A stretch of DNA of 64,000 bases from a virus, in IMG/VR virus record IMGVR_UViG_3300038386_000109, one strand, 5' to 3'. Positions 16,738-64,000 of the stretch are shown piece after piece (position 1 is the first letter of the stretch; each line of letters begins with the position of its first letter). The notes beneath the pieces are model-generated. The model did not search any database. It saw only the letters and a program-made list of their open reading frames with translations, and was not told the origin of the DNA. A program made the position numbers and the translations under genes.

Positions 16738-17469
16738 TTAGTCGATGCCGGGAATAATAGGCTCCGCAAAACATCGGCACCGGTAAATACATCCTGGGTG
16801 CGCACGGGCTCCTGTCCTCGCATCGGCTACAGGTGGACTTGCCCAGGCAAATACCTGACCATCTAGTTCTCGATGGAGGGGCCTTACATGATTATCGTGG
16901 ACGGACCGCCACACATATTGCGTAGAGCCGACATGCTCAGCGCGGACCTGCGTGATCGTCGTCATCGCGCGGCTCGTCTCAGTCTGCGCAATAAGCTCAG
17001 CCCGGCTGCGGACCACCTTGCCCGTCCGCATTATTTCCTCGACGAGAGACGCTGGCCTCTCGCCCGACACGAAACCCTGAAGCGCCAATTTTTGCACACG
17101 CGACGCGGCGTCTTTCGGCATCGACGTTATCAGGTCCACCTGGGACCGGATTAAATCCTGGATCGCCGCACCAGTCGGCGCCGTATCAATTTCCTGATGC
17201 AGGTTCCGGGAAATTTCCTGAGAAATATTCCACCAGCTTTTTCTATTTCGAGCGGCCACCTCAGTGGTCATGCGGGTCGCAACCGACGCCGCCCATGGCC
17301 CAAGAATTTCGGCGTACCGGTACAGGGCATCCTGAATTTTCTGGTAGTCGAGGACAGGGTCGAAGCCTTGAATTAGGTCGGCTATGTGCCGGGCAACCTT
17401 GCGCAGCTTTGCTGCATATTGCCGCTCGGCAGTGCGAGCCCTTACCCATTCAGCCCTAGGCGACGGCAC
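16738..17469 (-). CDS. Head morphogenesis protein (Mu gpF / SPP1 gp7-like)
   Basis: RAELIAQTET...YVWRSVHDNHVRPLHRELDG...HPGCIYRCRCFAEP. Confidence 0.9.
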   Translation of the reverse strand: MPSPRAEWVRARTAERQYAAKLRKVARHIADLIQGFDPVLDYQKIQDALYRYAEILGPWAASVATRMTTEVAARNRKSWWNISQEISRNLHQEIDTAPTGAAIQDLIRSQVDLITSMPKDAASRVQKLALQGFVSGERPASLVEEIMRTGKVVRSRAELIAQTETSRAMTTITQVRAEHVGSTQYVWRSVHDNHVRPLHRELDGQVFAWASPPVADARTGARAHPGCIYRCRCFAEPIIPGID

Positions 17470-26846: not shown

Positions 26847-27026
26847 TCAGGAACCGGGCAAGCCGTAAATTCTTTCGCGCTCAGCCTTCTGTCTGGCCTC
26901 ACGCCGTTTTCGCGCCTCTTCCTTAAACTCGTCGTTCTGTTGCGAGATATAATTCGAGAGGCGATAGCCGGTCTCCTCGCTAGTAGACCGTCGGCGGCGA
27001 TCCTCAAGGCGCTTGGCGAAGCTCAT
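26847..27026 (-). CDS. Hypothetical 59-aa protein (below ORF-track cutoff)
   Basis: Hand translation MSFAKRLEDRRRRSTSEETGYRLSNYISQQNDEFKEEARKRREARQKAERERIYGLPGS; ATGA overlap with upstream gene. Confidence 0.5.
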   Translation of the reverse strand: MSFAKRLEDRRRRSTSEETGYRLSNYISQQNDEFKEEARKRREARQKAERERIYGLPGS

Positions 27027-27232
27027 CGCCCGTGATGCCTTCCACCACCGCTCAGATGTTCCGTCTTCTCGCCCGGCTTGGCAACTATCTGATAGCCGGA
27101 GGCATCGAGGTCTTCCTGCAGCCGCTTGGATATTGCCGGCAGGTACGGCCGCACCTCACCTTCGAAAAAACTCGACTGCTCGCGGACCATTTGATCGATG
27201 GATGATTGAATAATGTCGTCGACAGTTCGCAT
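27023..27232 (-). CDS. Hypothetical protein
   Basis: 69 aa, starts just after the pentamer mini-array. Confidence 0.5.
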   Translation of the reverse strand: MRTVDDIIQSSIDQMVREQSSFFEGEVRPYLPAISKRLQEDLDASGYQIVAKPGEKTEHLSGGGRHHGR

Positions 27233-27237
27233 CGGAT

Positions 27238-27308
27238 TATCCTCGCCTCGCCTTGCCTGCGCCTTGCGCAGCCGAGCCCGACCCAGCCATGCAGTGGACA
27301 GCCATACC
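27238..27308 (-). repeat. Orphan GGY-NN pentamer mini-array (putative guide ncRNA)
   Basis: Minus strand reads GGTAT GGCTG TCCAC TGCAT GGCTG GGTCG GGCTC GGCTG CGCAA GGCGC(A) GGCAA GGCGA GGCGA GGATA: 14 units, one atypical, one 1-nt insertion. Confidence 0.65.
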
Positions 27309-27604
27309 TTGTCGTACGCAGATTACTGCGGCTTCAGCCATCGCGCCAGCATCATCGTGATATGCCGATCCTGCTGGGCGCGCCAAGGGGCTGGATGCTC
27401 GCGGTCTTGATGGAATTGCAGGGTCAGCATTGCGATCCACGAGGTCGAGGACTTTAGTCTTGCATCCCAGCTGGCCCTGCCGCGCATCGATTCGCTCTCC
27501 CTAGACGGAAAATCCTTCTACCGCGCCAACTGTATCGTGGAAAGTCCCTCTATAGCCGGACCTGCGACCCTCAAAATAAATACGAATATTCCCCTGGAAT
27601 AAAA

Positions 27605-30658: not shown

Positions 30659-31494
30659 CTACAGCCGCTTAACGATCCACATAACCACCGCGATCACGAC
30701 CACGATCGCGGTGAGCGCAAGGACATTTCCCGGCCAGCCCGGTGTAGCCATCTCAAAATGCCCTCGTCCATTTTCCCCCGATTGGTCGGCAGGTCCATCG
30801 GGATTTGTCGGGATCACCCGAAACCCCAAAAAAACCAGCCCAGAATTAAACCGACCGACGCAATAACGAGGGTGCCGCAAAGGAATATTGTAGCACCCTT
30901 ACTCATTCTTCGAAGCGGTAGGTCCACGTTCCCCCCGAATCTTTCACGATTTGGTCGCGCCTGACATACCCCTGTCCCACAGCAACGGCCGCATAAATCC
31001 CCCAGCCCTTCACAGTGACACGCCAGAGACCAAGACTAGTCTTCTCGCCCTTGTAGAGATGCACCAGCTCGCCGGTGCGGATGTAGCGGTGCAGCGCAAG
31101 GTCGACGAGGCCTCGGATCATTCTGACTTCCGCCGCTTCATCGCGTACTCGTAGGAGCTGACAGCGATGGCCGCGTACCTCTTTGTCAGCTGCTTCGCGG
31201 TCTCTATCGCGACATGGTGAGGCACCTGCGAATCGGAAGCGCGAGCTAGAATCTTGCCCCTACGATCAACCTCGCAGACATAGAAGAGGCGCGGTTCGCG
31301 GCTCACTTCGACTTCTTTTCCTGCTGCCGGCCGGTGACCGGCTTCTGGATGGCATTCTTAGGCATGCTGCCCAACACCTCGCTGACGATGGCGTCGCGCT
31401 GCATCTTCTGGCTTTCGTTCAGCTCGCGGTGGATCGGATCACCATCAAAATGCTCAGGTCCCAGCTCGCCGAGTTTGTGTTTATAGGGTTTCAT
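30659..31494 (-). CDS. Four small hypothetical ORFs (30659-30880, 30903-31121, 31118-31306, 31303-31494)
   Basis: Mostly overlapping start/stop codons; downstream of the portal gene and the second mini-array. Confidence 0.45.
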
Positions 31495-31546
31495 CCGTGC
31501 CTTGCCTCGCCGTGCCCAGCCGCGCCACGCACCGCAGAGCCGTGCC
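31492..31546 (-). repeat. Orphan GGY-NN pentamer mini-array (putative guide ncRNA)
   Basis: Minus strand GGCAC GGCTC TGCGG TGCGT GGCGC GGCTG GGCAC GGCGA GGCAA GGCAC GGATG: 11 perfectly phased units. Confidence 0.75.
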
Positions 31547-31551
31547 GCTGG

Positions 31552-34500
31552 CTAAAAATGGCGATCATTTCGGCCCTCCGCAACCTTTTTTGGCGAGCCT
31601 CGCTCGCCGTTATTGTCATACAGTGTCCAGCGCTTCAGTCGCGGGATGATGTCATCGAAATTCTTCTCGTTACCGTACGAGCCAAGGATGTATTCTGGCG
31701 GCACAAACCGGCCCGTCCCCTTGTCTGATACCCCGCCTTTGGCAAACCGGCCCATAGCGCGGTCCGCAGCGATTTCCGGCGTGCTGTGCATGTAAATCCC
31801 GTGTACGTCGTGCGTATCCTGAAACTGATCGATGCGCCGCAGCGCGCTGGTGCCCGACTTCATGGTCTGGTCGAAGGCGACGTTCAGACCCTTCTGCTTG
31901 GCGATCTGCGCAGCCATGTCGGCGATGTGCGAGCTTTCCTCGTGCACTAGGCCAGCATTCCAGCCCTCGTACTCCGGGAGCTGCTGCTTGAACGCATCCG
32001 AATCGACCACGATCGTATTCTTGCGCGACACGGGGCCGTCGGCGCCGGTGATGAACGACTTGCCGGAGCCGCCGCGGCCGCCGAGGACGGTCATCGTCGG
32101 CCGCTGCCCTGGCGCTGGCGTCGCGCCCTGCACCGCCTCAGGCGTGAACAGCTTCCGCAGGATTTCCTTGTGCAGTTGGGCGCGCTCCGGCGTGTACGTG
32201 CCGTCGTCGAGGGTGTGGCCACCGTCGTTGACGTGCGCGTTGGTCGGCACAGCCTGCTTCATCATCTCGCGGATTTTCGCGATTTGATCCGTCGTCCCGT
32301 ACTTTCCATTTATCCGCTTGGCGGCGTCGTCGATCTGCCCCGGGTGAGGCGCGCCGCCGTTCCTCGCTAGGAGGTCTTGGGCGGGTCCTTTTTCCCAGAC
32401 GCGGGAACTGACGTCTGGCGTCCACCCGTACTTTTGGGCGAACTGGTCTTCGACGGCTGCGATTTTGGGGCCGAGGTTGGCGAGTAGCGTGTCGGCGCTT
32501 CGTTCCACATCGGGTCCAGCCGATCGGATGGCTTGTAAATAATCCTCGGCATGGGGGGACTTGCTCCAATCGTTCGCCAGATAATCGCCCACGTAGTGAG
32601 CGCGCTGGGCCTCAATTTGCTCTGGAAGGCTGTCGGATTCAAGACCTTCGATCGCCGAATGCACAGCCGCGCCGAACTGATCGTTGGGCATCGATCCGGT
32701 ATTCAAGACGCGCCAGCCCTGCTGGGTCGGGACGAGCGCGTACTCCAGTCCGCTAACGGCGCCGAGCGCCTGATCGATGGCTGCCGCCTCGGCCTCTGAT
32801 GGGCTGCGACCCATCCTGAAGTCGAGCATATTGCTGTCCTTCGGATCGATGTCGACGAACCGCGTCGAGGCGTGCGGATCGAGGTGCTCGCTAATCAGCT
32901 TGGGCTGTTTGTAACCCCTGCCGATATCGGAGAGCAGGCCATTCTGTTCGGCGTACTGGCGCGCCGCCGTACGACTGAGGACCTGACCCTTGTCGTTCTT
33001 GAAAACGTAGTTCGCATCGTTCTGCGCGCCGCTCGCCAGAAAAGCCTTCTGCTCCTCCGGTCCGAGGGCCGCCAGTGCGTCTTTGTGGGTGACCCCGTGT
33101 CCGGTGTCCGTCGGGAACACAACGCCCTTGGCGGTCTTCAGACCGGGAATGAGATAGGCATGGGACGGCGGGGGTTCAGGCCGGTGCCATGCGGCAGCGT
33201 CTTGACGCAGCAGGATGCCCCGAATCGCCTCGCTGGCGTTGATCTTCGCCTTATCATCGTCGCCGAGCCGACCAAGATTAACCTGTGTCTGGGCGCCTGG
33301 ATTGACGCGACCTTGGAACACGCCGGCCGATGAGAACGTCGGGCCCGTGCGCAAGCCGAGGGTCTGCGCGATGACGTCGTGACCCTTCTCGTCGCTGAGG
33401 ACTTTCTCAATCGCCTGCTGGTACTCGCGGCGCTGCTCGAGCGGAGCGTCGTGGAACTGCGGCATGTTCCGCGTGGTCTTGCCGGGCGCACTCTCCCACG
33501 AGAGCTGGGCGGGCTGCCGCTCACGCGGGTCGGTCGGCTGATACTCGACGTGCGGGTGGTGCAGCGCCGGAGCCTGCGCGACCTTGCGGGCTACTCCTGG
33601 TCCGCTGGTGAATCGCCCGTGTTGCTCGCGGGGGTGCTGCTGCTCGTTCCACTGCTGGAAGAGGTCGAGGGCGAGCGGAACTGTTCCGGCAATTCCTCCT
33701 CGTCCTCCGCCGTCGGCTGATAATCCGGGTCGCCCCAGTTCACCGCGATGTAATTCGTGCGCGTCAGCGGTATGCCGTACGTCACCATGAACTCCACCAC
33801 TGGGTCGGTGCCATGAAGGTGGGCTAATTCCTCGGCTGAGAATGCGGCGCTGGGCTTCGTCTCGGGTGATTTTTCCACTGTCGGCGTCATCCCAGTGCCC
33901 CTTTATTTCCTTGCGAAGGTCGTCGCCTTTGTCCTCGGCTTTGAATAGACCGCGCTGCGCTTCCCAGGTGACCGACTGCATCTCACGTGGCAGGACGCCA
34001 CGCTCCTGAGCTGCGCGCCGGTATCCCTCTGCATATAATCCGTAGAGGCCTTTCGAGCCAGTGGCAGCATCCTTCGCGCCGGTGAGGCCGAGACCATCCT
34101 TAACCTCGGGATCGGCGCCACTCCACGGCATCAGCGCAGCCGCGCCAATAGCATGGGTGTCGATAGTCACGTCCCCACGCTTCGACTGCGGCGCGATGAT
34201 GTTGTTGTAGAAATTCCTAACCTTGTGATTTCCGCCAAGGTTCTTGGAAATATTCTCGGGCGACGGATCGTCCACGATCGACACCGCCTTGGCAATCTCG
34301 CGGAACGACTTCCACGCGGCGCGCGAATCGCGGCCGTCCTTGTTCTTGACCGAGCCGAGGACAGCACCCTCAGGCGACATTTCCGGGAACGAGCGGGTGT
34401 TTTCGGTCTCGTCCCAGAACCTGATCCAGTGTGCGCGCTCAAGCGGCTTCTGAATATCGGCGAGGGTTTTGCCCTCGAAACCCTGCATCATCTTGCGGAC

Positions 34501-37500
34501 ACCGGCGGCAACCTCGGGCGTTTTTTCCTCGAGCTTCTGCGCGTAGGCCTCGGCCCACTCCTTCATCCGCTGCGTGGTCTTCTTGTCGCTATGATTTTTG
34601 ATCGTGTCGATGACGCGGTGCGCCAGGCTGATGTTCTGGAACCAGTCATTCTGCGGCGACAACGCGGCTATTACGCCGGCAGCGACACGCGGCTCAATGC
34701 CGAAGTGCTGCGCCCAATCCTCGGCCATCTTGTGCGCGCCGTCGTACCAGAGCTTCGATCGACCCTTGATCTCGTCGGGGACTGAATCCCACAACGCCAG
34801 CACGTTCGATTTGACGTGGTTGACGAAATATTCTGAGGCCTCGTCGGCTTTCATATTTTTCGTCGCGCCGAGCCCGGGGATTTTCTTGATCAGCTCGGCG
34901 TTCTTTTCGAATGCGGCTTTCGAGGCCTTACTGGACTCGAGACCAACCTGAAAATCGGCACTCCTATGCGGGTCGACCGCGGTCTGACCTTTCTTCGGTT
35001 TCGCGGTCGGCACCCGGGTGGAGATGCGCTCGTCGTCAGGATTGGCCTCAGGCTGCGATTCCGGCCCGCTGGGCGGCTTTTTGCCTTCGGCCGGGTCCCA
35101 ATGGCCCGACGTGAATTGACCGCCCTGGTGAGACCCCTTCGGGGCCCGTTGCTCGCTCGGGCTTAGGCGGTCTTCAGCGATCACCTTGTCGTCCTGCTTC
35201 AGGACCTTGATGTCCTTCGGATCGAAGACGACGTAATTCAGCTCGCCGCGCAGCTGCGGGTCGCGGTAGACGTAGCCGGCTAGACCCCGACGCCTCAGCT
35301 CTTCGTCGGTCCACTTCGCGTCCTGCGCCTTGGTCCACGGCACGAAGTCGGTCCGCGGGCGCATCACACGCACCGTGTACAGATGGCCAGTGATATGCGT
35401 CTGCGCAGCGTTCAGCCGATGGATAGGCTTGCCGCTGAGCTGCAGCCGGTCGGTCAGCTCGTCGAGGTACCGGCGCGCTACGACCGGCGAGGTGGCGAGG
35501 TAGATGCCGGTCCCGTAGTGGGCGCGCGCGGTCCCGGTCCCGATGTGGCTGCTATCGAAATGATCGAAGTCGAAAGGGCTGCCGTGATACGCGACAAAGC
35601 CCTCCGCGGGGTCGGCATCCCACGCACCGCAGTGTGCCTCGCGTTCCTCGAGTATCTCGCGGACTGTCTCGATGTCATTCTCGCGCAGTGCGCGCCGCAG
35701 ACGCTCGCTCTCAATTTTGGTGAGCTTGCCTAGATCGAACGGAGGTGCTTCGTCCCGCGCTGAAGCGAGGCGGAGGTTCGGGGGCGCACGGACTGGAGAG
35801 CTGGCCGTGCCACCCCCGCCCCCACCGCCAGCGGCAGGACCGGACGTGGACGACGGGTCTTCGCCATCCGGCCCAGGCGGTTCCGGTACTTCCTGATTAG
35901 CCTTCGCGTTCGCGACGTCTTCCTCGGTGATCGTCTTGAACAGGCCAGCCTCGACCAATTCGCCCAAAGCTTGCGATGCGTCAATAAGGCCATCGGTGTA
36001 CGCAGTGAGGATCGGCGTCGCCATCTTCGTCGCGTTCTCAGACAGCTGCTCGTCCGTCATCTCAGGCTCGTCGTCGAGGTCGAGCCCGGCGTACGGCATC
36101 CCCTTGTCGCTCGCGACTTTCTTGCGCACCTCGAGCGGCGACAGTACGTTCGCGTCGATGTAGGTCTTATCAGTGCTGGCATCGGCCTGCCGCACCTGCG
36201 CATCCTCCATCGCGGACTGCGTCCACAGCGGCTCGAAGTCGAAGCCAATGTCGGGATCGATATCGCCGAACAGACTGAGCTGGGTAAAGTTAATGATGGT
36301 GGTCAGTTGCGGACGAAAGAAAACCTCCTGCACGGCATGAATCCAATCGTAGAACACCCTGATCTCGCCCTCGGACGAGGCGTTCAAGCCGTGCGGCGAC
36401 AGGCCGAAAAACTTCACCAGCGGGATGCCGGTGACGGCACTCATGTGCTCCTGCGACTGCGCTTGCAGCTCGTCGAGCCCACTCAGCGGCGTAGTGACAT
36501 TGAAAAACTCTTCATCGACATCGAGGACGAACGTGCCTTGGTTCTGCTTGAAGTTGGTGAACAGCTGCAGCCGGCGGATCATATCGTCGGCGCTAATGCC
36601 GCTGTTCAGCGCCTCGGCCATCTTGGTCTTGAAGCCAGTGGTGCTAAAGCTCTGAACGAGCCGGCCGACCGACTCACGAATGCGGTCCCAGTTGTTGACG
36701 TAGGTCTCGGCTAGCTGGGTCAGCGGAATACCGCCGAACGAGTAGCTCGGCTTCAGCAAGTCGGAGACGGGTCGACTGATGAACGTCAGTAGACGAGACG
36801 CATGAATGCGCTTATTCTGTACATACCATTGCGTCGGTACGTAGTAGTCAGGTGCCAGGGGGTCGGTGGCGTTGTACAAGGCGGGCGAACACCAGACAGG
36901 CTCGACGATACGAAGCGCATTGAACCGACCGCGGCCCACCTTTGCCCGGCTGATGTCATCGCTGCCTGATCCGATAGGCGTCGCCAGCTCAACAGAATCG
37001 TTAGTGTCGGCCCCCGTATCAATGTAGATATGGCCGCGCCCGAAGTAGCCGTCATGTTCCGCTACCTTTCGGAAGAGATCGCGCACACCCAGGCGAAGCA
37101 TCTCCGCCTCGATTTTCTTGACCTTATCGGTTTTATCGTCCTCGCTCGCGACCGTTATTTTAATCCACTTCCGCGTCATCTCCGTCGCGATGATCTCGAC
37201 CATGCGGCGGTACTCAGCCTTCTGCGACAAGTTCGCGAGCGCCGGGAAGCCGATGAAGCGCATGGCGTGCAGCAGCGTGCTGCCCATGGCAGCCTCGATC
37301 GAATGCCACGCCCACTCACTGATATCGTTGCCGAACAAGGACAGGCTCTCGTCCTGCACCAAGCCGCCCTTGTGACCGACGACTGGCGGGTGAAGAGCCT
37401 CGATCTTGAATGGGTTGACAGCCTTGCTTGGGTCGATCGACGAGGACGCGAGCATCGACTGGAATGCCCCGGCGTCGACCTTCCTGGTGCGCCTAGGTGT

Positions 37501-37527
37501 CCGCTCGTTCAGATCGGTGACGGTCAT
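31552..37527 (-). CDS. Polyvalent portal protein: DUF1073 portal + ART-like + glycosylase-like + zeta-toxin domains
   Basis: N-terminal ~550 aa DUF1073-like (EMTRKWI, IHASRLL, SGIPLVKFFGLSPHGLNASSEGE); YHGSPFDFDHF..G.GIYL..YVVFDP; VIAALSPQNDW..KVRNFY..VTIDTHA; VLGGRGGSGKS..VDSDAFK..VHEES. Confidence 0.8.
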   Translation of the reverse strand: MTVTDLNERTPRRTRKVDAGAFQSMLASSSIDPSKAVNPFKIEALHPPVVGHKGGLVQDESLSLFGNDISEWAWHSIEAAMGSTLLHAMRFIGFPALANLSQKAEYRRMVEIIATEMTRKWIKITVASEDDKTDKVKKIEAEMLRLGVRDLFRKVAEHDGYFGRGHIYIDTGADTNDSVELATPIGSGSDDISRAKVGRGRFNALRIVEPVWCSPALYNATDPLAPDYYVPTQWYVQNKRIHASRLLTFISRPVSDLLKPSYSFGGIPLTQLAETYVNNWDRIRESVGRLVQSFSTTGFKTKMAEALNSGISADDMIRRLQLFTNFKQNQGTFVLDVDEEFFNVTTPLSGLDELQAQSQEHMSAVTGIPLVKFFGLSPHGLNASSEGEIRVFYDWIHAVQEVFFRPQLTTIINFTQLSLFGDIDPDIGFDFEPLWTQSAMEDAQVRQADASTDKTYIDANVLSPLEVRKKVASDKGMPYAGLDLDDEPEMTDEQLSENATKMATPILTAYTDGLIDASQALGELVEAGLFKTITEEDVANAKANQEVPEPPGPDGEDPSSTSGPAAGGGGGGGTASSPVRAPPNLRLASARDEAPPFDLGKLTKIESERLRRALRENDIETVREILEEREAHCGAWDADPAEGFVAYHGSPFDFDHFDSSHIGTGTARAHYGTGIYLATSPVVARRYLDELTDRLQLSGKPIHRLNAAQTHITGHLYTVRVMRPRTDFVPWTKAQDAKWTDEELRRRGLAGYVYRDPQLRGELNYVVFDPKDIKVLKQDDKVIAEDRLSPSEQRAPKGSHQGGQFTSGHWDPAEGKKPPSGPESQPEANPDDERISTRVPTAKPKKGQTAVDPHRSADFQVGLESSKASKAAFEKNAELIKKIPGLGATKNMKADEASEYFVNHVKSNVLALWDSVPDEIKGRSKLWYDGAHKMAEDWAQHFGIEPRVAAGVIAALSPQNDWFQNISLAHRVIDTIKNHSDKKTTQRMKEWAEAYAQKLEEKTPEVAAGVRKMMQGFEGKTLADIQKPLERAHWIRFWDETENTRSFPEMSPEGAVLGSVKNKDGRDSRAAWKSFREIAKAVSIVDDPSPENISKNLGGNHKVRNFYNNIIAPQSKRGDVTIDTHAIGAAALMPWSGADPEVKDGLGLTGAKDAATGSKGLYGLYAEGYRRAAQERGVLPREMQSVTWEAQRGLFKAEDKGDDLRKEIKGHWDDADSGKITRDEAQRRILSRGISPPSWHRPSGGVHGDVRHTADAHELHRGELGRPGLSADGGGRGGIAGTVPLALDLFQQWNEQQHPREQHGRFTSGPGVARKVAQAPALHHPHVEYQPTDPRERQPAQLSWESAPGKTTRNMPQFHDAPLEQRREYQQAIEKVLSDEKGHDVIAQTLGLRTGPTFSSAGVFQGRVNPGAQTQVNLGRLGDDDKAKINASEAIRGILLRQDAAAWHRPEPPPSHAYLIPGLKTAKGVVFPTDTGHGVTHKDALAALGPEEQKAFLASGAQNDANYVFKNDKGQVLSRTAARQYAEQNGLLSDIGRGYKQPKLISEHLDPHASTRFVDIDPKDSNMLDFRMGRSPSEAEAAAIDQALGAVSGLEYALVPTQQGWRVLNTGSMPNDQFGAAVHSAIEGLESDSLPEQIEAQRAHYVGDYLANDWSKSPHAEDYLQAIRSAGPDVERSADTLLANLGPKIAAVEDQFAQKYGWTPDVSSRVWEKGPAQDLLARNGGAPHPGQIDDAAKRINGKYGTTDQIAKIREMMKQAVPTNAHVNDGGHTLDDGTYTPERAQLHKEILRKLFTPEAVQGATPAPGQRPTMTVLGGRGGSGKSFITGADGPVSRKNTIVVDSDAFKQQLPEYEGWNAGLVHEESSHIADMAAQIAKQKGLNVAFDQTMKSGTSALRRIDQFQDTHDVHGIYMHSTPEIAADRAMGRFAKGGVSDKGTGRFVPPEYILGSYGNEKNFDDIIPRLKRWTLYDNNGERGSPKKVAEGRNDRHF
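33591..33890 (-). CDS. Putative nested same-strand alternate-frame small protein
   Basis: GTDPVVEFMVTYGIPLTRTNYIAVNWGDPDYQPTAEDEEELPEQFR reads like a natural protein while the host frame here is low-complexity filler. Confidence 0.45.
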   Translation of the reverse strand: MTPTVEKSPETKPSAAFSAEELAHLHGTDPVVEFMVTYGIPLTRTNYIAVNWGDPDYQPTAEDEEELPEQFRSPSTSSSSGTSSSTPASNTGDSPADQE

Positions 37528-49986: not shown

Positions 49987-50443
49987 TTACGTCTGCTCTG
50001 TCGCTTCACCAGTCACATAAAAATCGACGCACTCGCCTTGGCCCTCAATGTCGTCCCAATCGCCCTCGTTGGCCTTGCGCTCGGCCTCGTCGGCGGACTC
50101 GGCGGTGACACGCACTACAGCATCGCGGAAGTGCATATTCATCGGCACGCGCCATACCTTTGTTGTCTCAGGTTTATTCTGGCCATTCATCGGTCGCTCC
50201 GGCTGCTAGCAATTTCCGCTTCACGATACCAACCTCCATGCCCGAGCAGGCGGCAATAAAATCGACAGCCTCATCGAAAGTAAGCTTCTTTTTGCGGCGA
50301 CGCTTCAACGACATGAGCCGCTGAAATTGCCCGTGGATATCGAAGGCGGAAACTACCATCACCGTTTCCCCAATCTCCATGCGCACTGACCAATAGATGC
50401 AAACACCCATGCCGCCGCCATTACCACGAGCGCGAATGCCCAC
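49987..50443 (-). CDS. Two small hypothetical ORFs (49987-50190, 50174-50443)
   Basis: Operon packing. Confidence 0.4.
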
Positions 50444-61092: not shown

Positions 61093-61944
61093 ATGGGAAT
61101 GGGAATGACCATAGAAACAATCGAAAAAACCCTCGAAGAGCATCCCGGAACGGCCTTGTCAGGGGAAATGCAAACCGACGCCCCAAAGTCGTCTCAGGAG
61201 CTGAACACCTTCGCCAAGACACTGCCACCGGCACCATCGCCAGACACATTGATGCGCGCCTTGGTAATGGCGGCGTCAGACCCGGCGTTCGACGTCGAAA
61301 AGCTGAGGACCTTGCGCGAGCTGCACAAGGAGGCCATCGAAGATCAGCGCCGTGCGGCGTGGAACGAGGCGATGGCGCGATGCCAGGAGGAAATGGCCAA
61401 GATACCGATCAAGGCCAACAAAAAGAACAGCCAGACAAATTCGGTCTACGCCGACATATCAGCCATAAACAGGGTTATTAAGCCGATCTACACGAAGCAC
61501 GGCTTCTCGGTGAATTTCGACACCATCGCTCCGCGCGTGGACAATCACCTGACCATGCGTGGTGTCGTGTCCCACAATGCTGGCTTCGAACGCGCCTACA
61601 CCAGCGACTACCCCCTCGATGTCGCTGGCATAAGGGACGGCCGCAACAAAACCGACATCCATGCGCAGGGATCAACCAAGACCTACGCCCGCCGGTATAT
61701 GCTGATCGAGATATTTAATCTCGACGTCGAGGGCATGGACAAGGACGGCAATTCTCCCAACGACATGGTCACCGAAGAGCAGGTCGCGGAGCTGAAAAAG
61801 ATCGTCAAGGACAACAAGATGAACGAAGCCGAAGTCCTGAACTACCTGAAGGTCGAAAACCTCTCCGACATCTACGCCGGAAAGTTTCAAGCCGCGAAGA
61901 CAGCGATCCTTCAGCGCGCGAAGGCGGCGCAGCAAAAGAAATGA
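61093..61944 (+). CDS. ERF-family single-strand annealing protein
   Basis: NSQTNSVYADI....KPIYTKHGF...GSTKTYARRYML...FNL. Confidence 0.85.
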   Translation: MGMGMTIETIEKTLEEHPGTALSGEMQTDAPKSSQELNTFAKTLPPAPSPDTLMRALVMAASDPAFDVEKLRTLRELHKEAIEDQRRAAWNEAMARCQEEMAKIPIKANKKNSQTNSVYADISAINRVIKPIYTKHGFSVNFDTIAPRVDNHLTMRGVVSHNAGFERAYTSDYPLDVAGIRDGRNKTDIHAQGSTKTYARRYMLIEIFNLDVEGMDKDGNSPNDMVTEEQVAELKKIVKDNKMNEAEVLNYLKVENLSDIYAGKFQAAKTAILQRAKAAQQKK

Positions 61945-62432
61945 CCCTCGAGATTTTCGACTGCGAGCAGCTCTTCGAGATAGACGCGGTCGCTGGCCGC
62001 ATCTTCTGGAAGAACCCGCCTAAAAACCATCCCCGACTTAAGGGAGTGGAGGCCGGATGCCCTCGTCTGGGTCGGAACGGAAAAATCTACTGGATAATAA
62101 AAATCAATGGGAGGCCACATTACCGCGGGCATTTGATTTTTACTTACATGAACGGAAGACCTCCGCACCCACTTCTTGATCACAGAGATGGCGACTCACT
62201 CAACGACAAAATCGATAATCTCAGAGACGCCACGCACGAACAGAATGTGTGGAACAGAAAACGTAGGCGATCCGCCGCACTGCCAATGGGCGTGCGAAGA
62301 TTCAGAGATAAGTTCCAGGCGCGGATCGTTTTCCGCAAAAAATATATCCATCTCGGCACCTTCAATACCGCTGAGATGGCCGAAGCAGCCTACCTATCTC
62401 GAAGGAGGGATTTGTATGGCGACTTCGCTTGA
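61941..62432 (+). CDS. HNH homing endonuclease with AP2-like domain
   Basis: LDHRDGDSLNDKIDNLRDAT..QN..N; GV....KFQARI....IHLGTF.TAE.A..AY. Confidence 0.9.
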   Translation: MTLEIFDCEQLFEIDAVAGRIFWKNPPKNHPRLKGVEAGCPRLGRNGKIYWIIKINGRPHYRGHLIFTYMNGRPPHPLLDHRDGDSLNDKIDNLRDATHEQNVWNRKRRRSAALPMGVRRFRDKFQARIVFRKKYIHLGTFNTAEMAEAAYLSRRRDLYGDFA

Positions 62433-63036
62433 AATTTTCGACTGTGAACAAGGGAGTTTAGAATGGGTACATCTGCGCCTCGGTATCCCGACGGCGAGCG
62501 AATTCTCGACCGTCATGGCGGTCGGAAAGCAGGGCGGCGAATCGGTGACGCGGCGAGCGCTCATGAACCGGCTTGCCGCGGAAGTCCTCACCGGATCACC
62601 TTCTGATGGAGCTTTTGAGAGTCGACACACCCTGCGCGGAAAAGAACAAGAGACAGAGGCAGCCGAAATGTATTCGTTCATCAACAACGTCGAACTTCAG
62701 CACGTAGGCTTTGTCAAAAACGGCATTGCTGGCTGCAGTCCTGATCGACTAATTGGCGAAGATGGAGGCTTGGAAATTAAGTCAGGTTTATCTCACATCG
62801 TCATCGATGCGATCCGACGCGATAAATTTCCGCCGGAGCACATGGCTCAGTGTATGGGCTCGATATGGGTCACAGAGCGGTCATGGTGGGACTTGGTATT
62901 ATACGCACCCGGCCTGCCACTGTTTCAGAAGCGCGTCTATCGGGACGAAGAATACATCAAGAAACTAAAGGAGGCGGTGGAGCAATTTTACGGGCATATG
63001 ATGCAAGTGGTCGAATTCGTACGAAGGTACGGATAA
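62416..63036 (+). CDS. YqaJ/lambda-type exonuclease
   Basis: EQGSLEW...RLGIPTASEF...GCSPDRL...GLEIK...MAQ; start moved to MATSLE (62416). Confidence 0.9.
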   Translation: MATSLEIFDCEQGSLEWVHLRLGIPTASEFSTVMAVGKQGGESVTRRALMNRLAAEVLTGSPSDGAFESRHTLRGKEQETEAAEMYSFINNVELQHVGFVKNGIAGCSPDRLIGEDGGLEIKSGLSHIVIDAIRRDKFPPEHMAQCMGSIWVTERSWWDLVLYAPGLPLFQKRVYRDEEYIKKLKEAVEQFYGHMMQVVEFVRRYG

Positions 63037-63041
63037 CATCT

Positions 63042-63297
63042 GGCATGGCTAAGATAGGCATAGCAAGGCCATGCTTGGCGCTGCGGGGCGAAGCTTGGCG
63101 TGGTTAAGCAAGGAGCGGCGCGGTTCGGCTCGGCTCAGCCCGGCGGGGCCATGCAGGGCGGGGCAAGGTCCGGGTAAGGCGGTGCGAGGCGGTGCGAGGC
63201 GAGGAGCGGTGAGGTGATGCGGAGCAAAAGCAAGGCAGGCACGGCAGGGCCAGGCCGGGCAAGGCGATGCGGGGCAAGGTATAGCGTGGCGAGGTGG
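63042..63297 (+). repeat. Long GGY-NN pentamer array (~51 units), putative guide-RNA locus
   Basis: Phased (G/A/T)G(C/T/A)-NN units from GGCAT GGCTA to GGCGA GGTGG with two 1-nt insertions (63172, 63228) and one 4-nt unit (63234-63237); no credible ORF. Confidence 0.85.
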
Positions 63298-63361
63298 TGA
63301 TACTTTATTTTTTGGTTAGCTCATTTCCGAGCAGACAAGGCAGACCTTGGGAGAATGAAAA

Positions 63362-63967
63362 ATGAAGATCGAAGTTAAAATAGAGGGCGTAACGCCCCTG
63401 ATATTCAACCGATTCACCGACAAAGCAGCAGAGGATTCTACCTCAGGCAATCGAGGTGCTCAAGGTGGCGACAGAGGTACTCCGCTAGAAATCGCGCACA
63501 GCAAGCTATACTTCGATGCGTACAACAAAAAGATCGTGGTACCTCAACCAAATTTGCTGCGGTGCTTAGTCGAAGGCGGACGATTTCATAAAATCGGCAA
63601 GACCCAGATCACGACGGAGCGTAAATCAATTCTGTACTCCTGCCTCGACATTGAGGGTGCGGACATCGAACTGATTCATAAACAACCATGGAAGGTCGAT
63701 ACGCGCGCTGTACGCATTCCCGCAACAGGCGGACGCATCCTTGCCCACCGCCCCATGTTCGACGACTGGACGCTCGAATTTATCGTCGACCTTGATACAT
63801 CGATTATTGGGGTCAAGCTTCTAAGAATGATCGTCGACGACGCTGGCAAACGGATCGGGTTAGGAGACTTCCGACCTGCTACAAAGGGGCCGTTTGGTAA
63901 GTTCTGTGTGACGCTTTGGCAGGAGATTCAAGAGCTTCCGTCAACGATGCAAATCGCTGCCGAGTAA
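63362..63967 (+). CDS. Standalone Cas7/RAMP-like protein (Vipr-like)
   Basis: IEVKIEGVTPL (RAMP beta1), IVVPQPNLLRCL (position of the P.IPGSSLKG motif), C-terminal Gly loop IGLGDFRPATKGPFGKFCV; no other cas genes; flanked by pentamer arrays. Confidence 0.75.
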   Translation: MKIEVKIEGVTPLIFNRFTDKAAEDSTSGNRGAQGGDRGTPLEIAHSKLYFDAYNKKIVVPQPNLLRCLVEGGRFHKIGKTQITTERKSILYSCLDIEGADIELIHKQPWKVDTRAVRIPATGGRILAHRPMFDDWTLEFIVDLDTSIIGVKLLRMIVDDAGKRIGLGDFRPATKGPFGKFCVTLWQEIQELPSTMQIAAE

Positions 63968-63973
63968 AACTAT

Positions 63974-64000
63974 GGCGCAGCGTGGCAGTGTCCTGCACTG
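63974..64000 (+). repeat. Start of a second pentamer array downstream of the RAMP-like gene (truncated)
   Basis: GGCGC AGCGT GGCAG TGTCC TGCAC TG in the same 5-nt phase. Confidence 0.6.

What the first reader, a model, noticed from the sequence alone, without database searches (positions are those of the whole stretch)
63042..64000. Candidate RNA-guided system: lone Cas7/RAMP-like gene flanked by GGY-NN pentamer arrays (VIPR-like)
Seen: a 201-aa gene with RAMP hallmarks, preceded by ~51 phased pentamers and followed at once by more, with two more arrays of the same grammar elsewhere. There are no CRISPR repeats/spacers and no other cas genes. Known: Cas7-family RAMPs polymerise along guide RNA with a fixed nucleotide period. 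Inference: each protomer grips a constant GGY while the variable NN pairs with a target, giving a non-contiguous, gapped guide code for silencing DNA of competing phages or the host. I recall recent reports of such phage systems under the name VIPR but cannot verify that here.
Basis: partly seen in the sequence, partly recalled or inferred. Interest (0 to 1): 0.95.

Follow-up and report, generated by a model that had tools for sequence, protein, structure and literature searches.

The report
Phage VIPR guide-RNA system (known kind)
This uncultivated phage carries a VIPR system: a small CRISPR-related protein flanked by five-base-repeat guide RNA genes. The kind was first described in 2026 preprints, so this is a new example of a known kind, and one of its guides spells the most conserved motif of single-strand-DNA-binding (ssb) genes.

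Summary

**Protein.** The 201-aa gene (63362-63967) is a Vipr protein.
- A family profile matches PDB 36pp "SUSP1 Vipr protein" over its full length (E 4.6e-20).
- The AlphaFold model (pLDDT 94.6) hits Csm3/Cas7 chains in the PDB.
- All five Vipr seed proteins of the discovery paper fall among its top seven AFDB cluster hits.

**Arrays.**
- 52 YNNGG pentamers lie upstream (63039-63299, with one +1 slip).
- About 38 more follow the stop codon and run past the window end.
- Two short arrays lie 32 and 36 kb away on the other strand.
- In 31 of 42 related loci, such arrays flank the homologue, always on its strand. The GGY part is constant and no NN word is shared with this window.
- There is no CRISPR array, no nearby cas gene and no conserved accessory gene.

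**Targets.** Eleven units of the last downstream array, read by the published one-base-skip rule, spell E-S-W-R-D-K-Q-T-G-E-K. That exact pattern hit 14 viral and 109 metagenome contigs, and all 94 examined hits lie in frame in ssb genes. Five other seeds found nothing and a sixth gave two chance-level hits. No self-target was found.

**Status.** VIPR is in print (bioRxiv, April and October 2026), and this scan has noted it in at least 80 other genomes. This is a new member of a known kind. Expression could not be tested.

The parts
63039..63173 (+). vrRNA array block A: 27 YNNGG units. It starts 3 nt after the stop codon of the YqaJ-type exonuclease gene and probably holds more than one guide.
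   Evidence: Phase parse; periodicity and shuffle test.
63174..63174 (+). A single extra G that shifts the pentamer register by +1 between blocks A and B. This resembles the 'staggered array' junction described in the discovery paper (Fig. S18 legend).
   Evidence: Paper legend read. The same CAAGG-plus-1-nt slip occurs before block D and in loci L005 and L008.
63175..63299 (+). vrRNA array block B: 25 units, degenerate in the middle (units 10-13).
63300..63361 (+). A/T-rich spacer (a run of T) followed by the vipr ribosome-binding site. No stable structured tail is predicted.
   Evidence: Fold z-score 0.10. A/T-rich sequence follows arrays in relatives.
63362..63967 (+). vipr gene: 201-aa Vipr, a minimal RAMP/Cas7-like protein.
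   Evidence: PDB 36pp_D 'SUSP1 Vipr protein' E 4.2e-9 (single sequence) and 4.6e-20 (profile). AF2 pLDDT 94.6. Foldseek top 50 PDB hits are chains of type III Csm/Cmr and type VII effector complexes. AFDB ranks 1, 2, 4, 6 and 7 are the paper's five Vipr seeds. phrog_4652 E 1.8e-21.
63971..64000 (+). Start of the downstream arrays. Block C has 7 units (63971-64005). The rest lies past the window end in the same contig: 4 units, a +1 slip, then the 27-unit block D at L001 10672-10806. Units 14-24 of D (L001 10737-10791) spell the SSB motif. Block D ends CAAGG-CAAGG, 8 nt before the ssb ATG.
27241..27311 (-). Remote array R1: 10 units, a 1-nt slip, then 4 units. It ends CAAGG-CGAGG-CGAGG, 8 nt before the ATG of ORF 27023-27232.
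31495..31549 (-). Remote array R2: 11 units. It lies between the stop codon of the 1991-aa portal fusion gene and the ATG of ORF 31303-31494.
   Evidence: Portal annotation.
61093..63036 (+). Upstream early recombination genes that set the context: Erf annealase (61093-61944), HNH endonuclease (61941-62432) and YqaJ-type exonuclease (62416-63036).
   Evidence: Pfam calls; PHROG hits.

Best explanation
This is a phage-borne VIPR (Viral Interference Programmable Repeat) system.

**Proposed mechanism**
- The arrays are transcribed with the early recombination operon (exonuclease, arrays A/B, vipr, arrays C/D, ssb) and cut into vrRNAs.
- One Vipr protomer binds each pentamer. It sequesters the constant G-G-Y and exposes the two variable bases.
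- The filament then pairs with double-stranded DNA that carries the same dinucleotides separated by one skipped base, and blocks transcription there.
- At least one guide (units 14-24 of block D) is set to the codon-periodic motif E-S-W-R-D-K-Q-T-G-E-K of ssb genes. A likely job is therefore silencing the ssb of rival phages, or of a host, in the same cell.
- The two remote arrays would supply further guides in trans from the late-gene region.

**Shown here**
- Homology of the protein to solved Vipr.
- The array grammar and its strand-locked association with vipr across relatives.
- Hypervariable NN bases.
- The ssb match under the 1-nt skip rule.
- Absence of self-targets.

**Inferred from the published SUSP1 work**
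- RNA binding, filament formation, the skip rule and repression.

**Not known**
- The vrRNA boundaries, expression, and the true natural targets of the other guides.
For: **Protein**
- phmmer to PDB 36pp_D 'SUSP1 Vipr protein' gives E 4.2e-9. An 87-sequence profile gives E 4.6e-20 over residues 1-184 against 1-188.
- In those alignments the SUSP1 residues that grip G1 and G2 (H17, R138, D177, W178, R179) align with N16, R130, D169, F170 and R171. R130 and R171 are among the nearly invariant columns of the family alignment. R130, D169 and R171 are invariant and N16 is nearly invariant among close relatives.
- The AF2 model has pLDDT 94.6. Its 50 best PDB matches are chains of type III Csm/Cmr and type VII effector complexes, down to E 4.8e-7.
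- AFDB cluster ranks 1, 2, 4, 6 and 7 are X1U2U4, A0A0F9A1L0, A0A661D0E2, A0A2D6XG06 and A0A1F4YLN4, the five seeds named in the paper's methods.

**Arrays**
- 52 units lie upstream and about 38 downstream, far beyond shuffles.
- 31 of 42 related loci carry in-phase YNNGG blocks beside the homologue. All of these are on its strand and none on the other.
- The unit logo over 91 blocks is C/T 98%, N, N, G 81%, G 96%.
- No 5-unit NN word is shared between this window and 115 blocks in relatives.

**Targets**
- The exact NNx pattern of D units 14-24 hit 14 IMG/VR contigs and 109 metagenome contigs. All 94 examined hits lie in frame in ssb genes. I estimate about 0.01 chance hits in the viral collection.
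- No self-match exceeds the 0- and 2-skip controls, as the paper reports for its systems.

**Context**
- The element is a phage: portal, E217-type tail genes, and an Erf/HNH/YqaJ/SSB module.
Against: - No RNA data exist for this element, so transcription and processing are unproven.
- No accessory (vap) gene is adjacent or conserved with the homologue.
- No structured 3' tail like the SUSP1 pseudoknot is predicted.
- Blocks of 25-27 units exceed the 9-16 units reported for type II vrRNAs. Boundaries must therefore be guessed.
- Five of seven guide seeds found nothing, and a sixth gave two hits that look like chance.
- The ssb match covers only 11 units and never extends into the flanking units.
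- I chose that seed after recognising the motif.
- Only 6 of 401 sampled Alphaproteobacteria genomes carry the site with 2 or fewer mismatches. A host ssb target is therefore not supported for that class.
Confidence: 0.92

Rival explanations
1. The pentamer tracts act as DNA rather than as RNA genes. They would be iterons, an origin of replication or protein-binding repeats of the phage replication module, and the RAMP-like protein would be unrelated to them.
For: The main arrays lie inside the replication and recombination module, between the exonuclease and ssb genes. No promoter or terminator consensus stands out beside them. No RNA data are available.
Against: DNA-level repeats need not keep one strand relative to a neighbouring gene, yet all blocks beside the homologue in 31 related loci lie on its strand. 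The partner protein is a homologue of a protein solved in complex with exactly this kind of repeat RNA. Remote arrays in the related phage record G406 are each followed by a G+C hairpin (a short T run after the first only), like small transcription units. NN is hypervariable while GGY is fixed.
Confidence: 0.03
2. The locus is a decayed or minimal CRISPR-Cas remnant. The gene would be a stray Cas7/Csm3 left over from a type III or IV system, and the pentamers would be unrelated low-complexity DNA.
For: The best solved-structure matches are chains of type III Csm/Cmr and type VII complexes. Some AFDB neighbours are annotated Cmr6.
Against: The window has no CRISPR-type repeats and no Cas family within 10 kb. 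The nearest sequence and fold relatives are Vipr proteins, not Cas7. The family has 2283 representatives at 50% identity. In the 42 related loci examined, the homologue sits mostly beside pentamer arrays and phage replication and recombination genes.
Confidence: 0.02
3. The system is a real VIPR, but the ssb reading of guide D is a coincidence. The NN string would merely resemble a common conserved motif, and the guide's true target would be something else or nothing.
For: The match stops at 11 units and never extends. I chose the seed after recognising the motif. Most matching ssb genes are of a gammaproteobacterial type (my reading of the motif context) and may not share a host with this phage. 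Few sampled Alphaproteobacteria carry the site.
Against: Twenty-two specified bases matched exactly in 123 contigs, always in the codon register among the 94 examined. Eleven units is within the published vrRNA length range. Codon-periodic targeting of an essential gene is the published behaviour of SUSP1 VIPR. The guide sits directly upstream of the phage's own ssb.
Confidence: 0.3

Closest known systems
VIPR type II system of Escherichia phage SUSP1 (vipr, vap1, vrRNA1-4; PDB 36pp; bioRxiv 10.64898/2026.04.26.720920 and .720927)
   Same: - Homologous Vipr protein: profile E 4.6e-20 over the full length, with the G-loop D-aromatic-R-P and the thumb R-P conserved.
- YNNGG arrays lie both upstream and downstream of vipr on its strand.
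- The system is phage-borne, with no CRISPR array or cas genes.
- One guide fits a coding target under the 1-nt skip rule.
   Different: - About 28% identity over the aligned part.
- No vap gene.
- Blocks of 25-27 units rather than 9-16.
- No predicted pseudoknot tail. Blocks in this clade tend to end in CAAGG-CAAGG followed by A/T-rich sequence instead.
- The arrays fill the whole intergenic gaps of an operon.
Staggered vrRNA arrays (Fig. S18 of the discovery paper) and other VIPR types I and III-VII
   Same: Adjacent blocks are offset by one nucleotide: CAAGG, one extra base, then a new register. This occurs at 63174, before block D and in R1.
   Different: I could read only the figure legend. 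The type of this locus cannot be assigned without the paper's data files. No hammerhead ribozyme or any Rfam family lies between blocks.
Solo or orphan vrRNAs of satellites and vipr-null phages (bioRxiv 10.64898/2026.10.15.759431)
   Same: Short arrays stand alone, far from any vipr gene: R1 and R2 lie 36 and 32 kb away.
   Different: Here the same genome also encodes vipr. A related 74-kb phage record (G406) likewise has two remote opposite-strand arrays plus vipr.
Csm3/Cas7 backbone subunits of class 1 CRISPR effectors (e.g. PDB 9ash_F, 6ifn_E)
   Same: RRM/RAMP fold with a glycine-rich loop and a thumb. Foldseek probability 1.0, TM about 0.5.
   Different: 10-14% identity. No partner Cas proteins and no crRNA repeat. 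The period is 5 nt rather than 6 nt.

Membership tests
VIPR system | Vipr protein: a minimal RAMP with an RRM core, glycine-rich loop and thumb, homologous to characterised Vipr | tested here: met
   PDB 36pp_D E 4.2e-9 (single sequence) and 4.6e-20 (profile). Model pLDDT 94.6. PDB fold hits are Csm3/Cas7-containing complexes. All five paper seeds fall in the top 7 AFDB clusters.
VIPR system | Residues that hold the GGY bases (SUSP1 H17, R138, D177, W178, R179) | tested here: met
   The HMMER alignments place N16, R130, D169, F170 and R171 at these positions. R130 and R171 are nearly invariant in the family alignment. R130, D169 and R171 are invariant and N16 nearly invariant among close relatives. 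The pyrimidine-pocket residues E71 and M72 are not conserved (P63 and N64 here).
VIPR system | Tandem YNNGG (GGY/NN) repeats, at least 4 units, next to vipr on the same strand | tested here: met
   52 units upstream and about 38 downstream. 31 of 42 related loci have them, always on the vipr strand.
VIPR system | GGY conserved and NN hypervariable among relatives | tested here: met
   Logo over 91 blocks. No shared 5-unit NN word among 115 blocks.
VIPR system | Conserved 3' tail capping each vrRNA (a pseudoknot in the SUSP1 clade) | tested here: inconclusive
   No stable fold follows block B (z 0.10) and no Rfam hit occurs. However, 43 of 91 blocks in relatives end in CAAGG and 41 have CAAGG as the penultimate unit, followed by ATT or TTT. 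This may be a different kind of 3' end.
VIPR system | Accessory vap gene in the operon (typical, not universal) | tested here: not met
   The neighbours are a YqaJ exonuclease and ssb. No neighbour family is shared between this locus and relatives, whose neighbours are DUF669, AAA_24, PD-(D/E)XK, RusA and helicase genes.
VIPR system | Guides match natural targets under the 1-nt skip rule, with no self-targets | tested here: met
   This holds for one guide only: D units 14-24 match ssb genes. The other seeds gave nothing convincing. No self-match exceeds controls.
VIPR system | vrRNAs are expressed and co-purify with Vipr, and the complex represses matching DNA | not testable with these tools
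   Only two DNA runs hold the sequence and no RNA run does.
Class 1 CRISPR-Cas (Cas7/Csm3) | A CRISPR repeat-spacer array and partner cas genes (cas5, the cas8/cas10 large subunit, cas6) | tested here: not met
   No CRISPR-like direct repeats in 64 kb. No Cas Pfam family within 10 kb. Not every ORF of the window was screened.

The most novel reading that the evidence does not exclude
Guide D (units 14-24) is a deliberately broad-spectrum guide. It is set to the codon positions 1-2 of the near-universal SSB OB-fold motif E-S-W-R-D-K-Q-T-G-E, which synonymous mutation cannot change. The phage could then silence the ssb of many rival phages or plasmids, or of a host, while relying on a copy of its own that lacks the site. 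The guide lies directly upstream of the phage's own ssb. This hints that guides may arise from, or be kept next to, the gene they target in rivals. The remote arrays in the late-gene region would time other guides to late infection.
Probability: 0.3. Interest if true: 0.55.

Novelty: new member of a known kind. Interest (0 to 1): 0.3.

Why it matters
VIPR is a very recent addition to RNA-guided systems, and only type II loci from enterobacterial and Pseudomonas phages have been tested at the bench.

This locus belongs to a large branch that carries no Pfam or NCBIfam model, and the members whose database names I saw are called hypothetical proteins. The branch has 2283 representatives at 50% identity. 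It spans Alphaproteobacteria, Planctomycetota, Magnetococcales, candidate-phyla bacteria (Paceibacteria/Patescibacteria) and an archaeon. In the loci examined it usually sits inside phage replication and recombination modules, with no accessory gene shared with this locus.

The locus offers a compact test case:
- one protein and about 460 nt of arrays;
- a concrete predicted target, the ssb core motif;
- a different 3' end signature;
- guides dispersed over the genome.

If the ssb reading holds, it adds an essential replication gene to the known target classes. It would also show how the gapped code exploits codon periodicity against conserved protein motifs.

Tried and rejected
**Structure**
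- The single-sequence AlphaFold run was useless (pLDDT 30) and was replaced by an 87-sequence alignment.

**Family libraries**
- Pfam and NCBIfam have no model for the protein.

**Collection scans for relatives**
- The first genome-contig scan with exact peptides found nothing.
- The diverse alignment was too variable for the pattern scan.

**Target search**
- Whole 25-27-unit blocks and sliding 9-, 12- and 16-unit windows were tested against the contig itself and against 308 kb of related loci. The 1-nt skip scored no better than the 0- and 2-skip controls.
- Exact NNx seeds A9-18, D8-17, D1-10, A15-25 and B12-21 gave 0 hits in IMG/VR. Two of these span the middle of a 27-unit block, which may be a guide boundary.
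- Seed R1 units 1-9 gave 2 hits, about the number expected by chance. They lie in unrelated contexts and I rejected them.
- D units 13-25 gave 0 hits in metagenomes, so the ssb match does not extend.
- A host-ssb target in Alphaproteobacteria is not supported: 6 of 401 genomes carry the site with 2 or fewer mismatches.

**RNA elements**
- No hammerhead or other Rfam family lies in or around the arrays.
- No convincing promoter or terminator was found.
- No structured tail is predicted.

**Other**
- No whole genome is held for the window, no tRNA gene was found, and the host was not identified.
- Read-laying was not attempted.
- I did not run a complex prediction, because a pass would not have changed the verdict.
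- Segmenting blocks at internal CAAGG units was considered and dropped as unreliable, since one CAAGG lies inside the ssb match.

Full report
**What is in the sequence**

The ORF at 63362-63967 (+) encodes 201 aa.

Upstream array:
- The YqaJ-type exonuclease gene stops at 63036. Three bases later, at 63039, a tract begins that parses without gaps as 27 units of Y-N-N-G-G (to 63173).
- One extra G follows (63174), then 25 more units in the shifted register (63175-63299).
- G autocorrelation peaks at lags 5 and 10 (0.47 and 0.49).
- The best single phase holds 17 perfect YNNGG units, against a maximum of 11 in 1000 dinucleotide shuffles.

Downstream arrays:
- The window ends 33 nt after the stop codon. 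The same metagenome contig (ena:ERZ27313809:k141_1742181, 77,985 bp; the window is its bases 13471-77470) was recovered by exact protein look-up.
- Pentamers resume 3 nt after the stop: 7 units, a short break, 4 units, a +1 slip, then a 27-unit block D (L001 10672-10806).
- Block D ends CAAGG-CAAGG, 8 nt before the ATG of an ssb gene.

Remote arrays:
- Two more arrays lie on the minus strand, at 27241-27311 and 31495-31549.
- Each fills an intergenic gap and ends at or just before the next start codon.
- Windows with at least 7 of 10 phased GGY occur nowhere else on either strand.

**What the protein is**

- Pfam and NCBIfam give nothing. PHROGs gives an unannotated family (phrog_4652, E 1.8e-21).
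- Against PDB chain sequences, the only hit is 36pp_D, "SUSP1 Vipr protein" (E 4.2e-9).
- A profile of 87 diverse homologues raises this to E 4.6e-20 and aligns the full length.
- With that alignment AlphaFold2 gives pLDDT 94.6.
- Foldseek against the PDB returns only chains of type III Csm/Cmr and type VII CRISPR effector complexes among the 50 best, down to E 4.8e-7.
- Against AFDB clusters, ranks 1, 2, 4, 6 and 7 are X1U2U4, A0A0F9A1L0, A0A661D0E2, A0A2D6XG06 and A0A1F4YLN4. These are exactly the five proteins the discovery paper names as its first Vipr hits.

The cryo-EM paper lists the residues that hold the two guanines: H17, R138, D177 and W178, with R179 helping to form the pyrimidine pocket. 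In the HMMER alignments these positions are N16, R130, D169, F170 and R171 in the window protein. R130 and R171 are nearly invariant across the family. R130, D169 and R171 are invariant and N16 nearly invariant among close relatives.

**What is known about this kind**

VIPR was described in two bioRxiv preprints of April 2026 and a third of October 2026:
- Vipr protomers polymerise one per pentamer on vrRNAs made of GGY/NN repeats.
- The GGY bases are flipped out, and the NN bases pair with DNA in which every third base is skipped.
- Binding represses transcription. Natural targets are rival phages, satellites and other VIPR loci.
- Seven types are defined. Staggered arrays with 1-nt offsets, ribozyme-separated arrays and solo vrRNAs are all reported.

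This scan has already noted such loci in at least 80 other genomes.

**Evidence from relatives**

- The family is large: 1718 clusters by word search and 2283 representatives at 50% identity. The few members whose database names I saw are "hypothetical protein"; the closest named ones are from Rhizobium ruizarguesonis, at 66% identity.
- Forty-two related loci from IMG/VR and from genomes of many phyla were fetched.
- In 31 of them, in-phase YNNGG blocks lie within 1.2 kb of the homologue. All are on its strand and none on the other.
- Over 91 blocks, the unit is C/T (98%), N, N, G (81%), G (96%). The median block is 15 units and the longest is 71.
- No 5-unit NN word is shared between this window's guides and 115 blocks in relatives. 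This is the constant-handle, variable-guide pattern.

A feature I could not find in the papers' main text concerns the 3' ends. Blocks in this clade end in CAAGG (43 of 91) preceded by CAAGG (41 of 91), followed by ATT or TTT. Block D and both remote arrays end in this way. No pseudoknot-like tail is predicted after block B (z 0.10), and no Rfam family, hammerheads included, lies in the region.

**Context**

- The element is a phage. It carries a portal fusion protein of 1991 aa, E217-type contractile tail genes and a lysozyme.
- vipr sits in the early recombination module: Erf, HNH, YqaJ exonuclease, arrays, vipr, arrays, ssb.
- In relatives the cassette sits among other replication and recombination genes (PD-(D/E)XK nuclease, AAA_24, DUF669, RusA, helicase). 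No neighbour family is shared with this locus. I see no vap gene.
- The window has no CRISPR-type repeat and no Cas family within 10 kb.
- The arrays leave no room for their own promoters. They are probably transcribed with the operon and then processed (inference).

**Remote arrays**

A related, 94%-complete 74-kb phage record (G406, Vipr 63% identical) also has two arrays on the strand opposite to vipr, 13 and 46 kb away. Each is followed by a G+C-rich hairpin, and the first of these by a short T run. One of them lies next to that phage's homologue of the portal fusion gene. Dispersed guides in vipr-positive phages therefore recur, which supports R1 and R2 being real vrRNA genes. Solo vrRNAs are already in print for satellites and vipr-null phages.

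**Targets**

- Applying the published rule (GGY replaced by one wildcard, both strands) gave no self-match better than the 0- and 2-skip controls, for whole blocks or sub-windows. There was none in the related loci either.
- Reading NNx as codons, units 14-24 of block D spell [DE]-[RS]-[CW]-R-[DE]-[KN]-[HQ]-T-G-[DE]-[KN]. This is E-S-W-R-D-K-Q-T-G-E-K, which I recognise as the core OB-fold motif of SSB proteins.
- The exact 22-base pattern hit 14 IMG/VR contigs and 109 metagenome contigs.
- All 14 viral hits, and all 80 metagenome hits held as loci, lie in frame in ssb genes reading ATSESWRDKQTGEN and close variants.
- By my estimate, chance would give about 0.01 hits in the viral collection.
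- The match never extends into units 1-13 or 25-27. Block D therefore probably holds two guides of about 13 units. That fits the published 9-16 units, and it may explain why two earlier seeds that spanned the mid-point of a block found nothing.
- The other seeds gave nothing, or two chance-level hits.
- Only 6 of 401 sampled Alphaproteobacteria genomes carry the site with 2 or fewer mismatches. The natural target is more likely a rival element's ssb than a host gene of that class. The host itself is unknown.

The ssb reading rests on a seed that I chose after recognising the motif, and I give it about 0.65-0.7.

**An oddity**

The phage's own ssb, directly after block D, is SSB-like for 34 residues (481 phage records match). 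It then diverges and stops at residue 42, just before the place where the targeted motif would be. The remaining 230 nt of the contig are palindromic, REP-like sequence. A Logan contig of the probable source run (SRR7091543) carries the same junction. I could not test whether this is a true truncation, an insertion or an assembly limit.

**Verdict**

This is a VIPR system and a new member of a known kind (confidence 0.92). The points that go beyond the papers' main text are modest:
- very long, tail-less blocks with a CAAGG-CAAGG end;
- no accessory gene;
- dispersed guides in a vipr-positive phage;
- an ssb-motif guide.

Expression, processing and activity remain untested.

Noticed in passing
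L001 10815-11154 (same contig, just past the window end; would be window 64176-64515): The phage's ssb gene is SSB-like for 34 residues, then diverges and stops at residue 42. This is just before the position of the motif that guide D spells. The rest of the contig is palindromic REP/MITE-like sequence. The same junction occurs in a Logan contig (L002) of the probable source run.
   Followed up: partly
L001 10611-10811; window 63071-63217: Gene callers and ORF lists report the G+C-rich arrays as small ORFs (66 aa and 48 aa). These are almost certainly not genes.
   Followed up: partly
L180 and L181 (record G406, 16998-17077 and 50218-50292, minus strand): A related 74-kb phage also has two remote arrays on the strand opposite to vipr. 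Each is followed by a G+C hairpin (the first by a short T run), like independent small RNA genes.
   Followed up: partly
L007 2025-2379; L012 about 350-2120: One relative has 71 uninterrupted units with internal tandem duplications (CACGG eight times, TTAGG-CGAGG three times). Another has about 15 separate blocks over 1.8 kb upstream of vipr. Arrays seem to grow by local duplication.
   Followed up: no
window 31552-37527 (-): A 1991-aa ORF begins with a portal domain (phrog_146, E 1.9e-110) and carries further unannotated and minor-head-protein-like regions.
   Followed up: no
loci L009-L044: Vipr homologues of this branch occur in MAGs labelled Desulfovibrionaceae, Planctomycetota, Magnetococcales, Alphaproteobacteria, Paceibacteria/Patescibacteria and Bathyarchaeia. 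The most distant ones (29-35% identity) show no YNNGG blocks with my detector, so they may use other repeat units.
   Followed up: no
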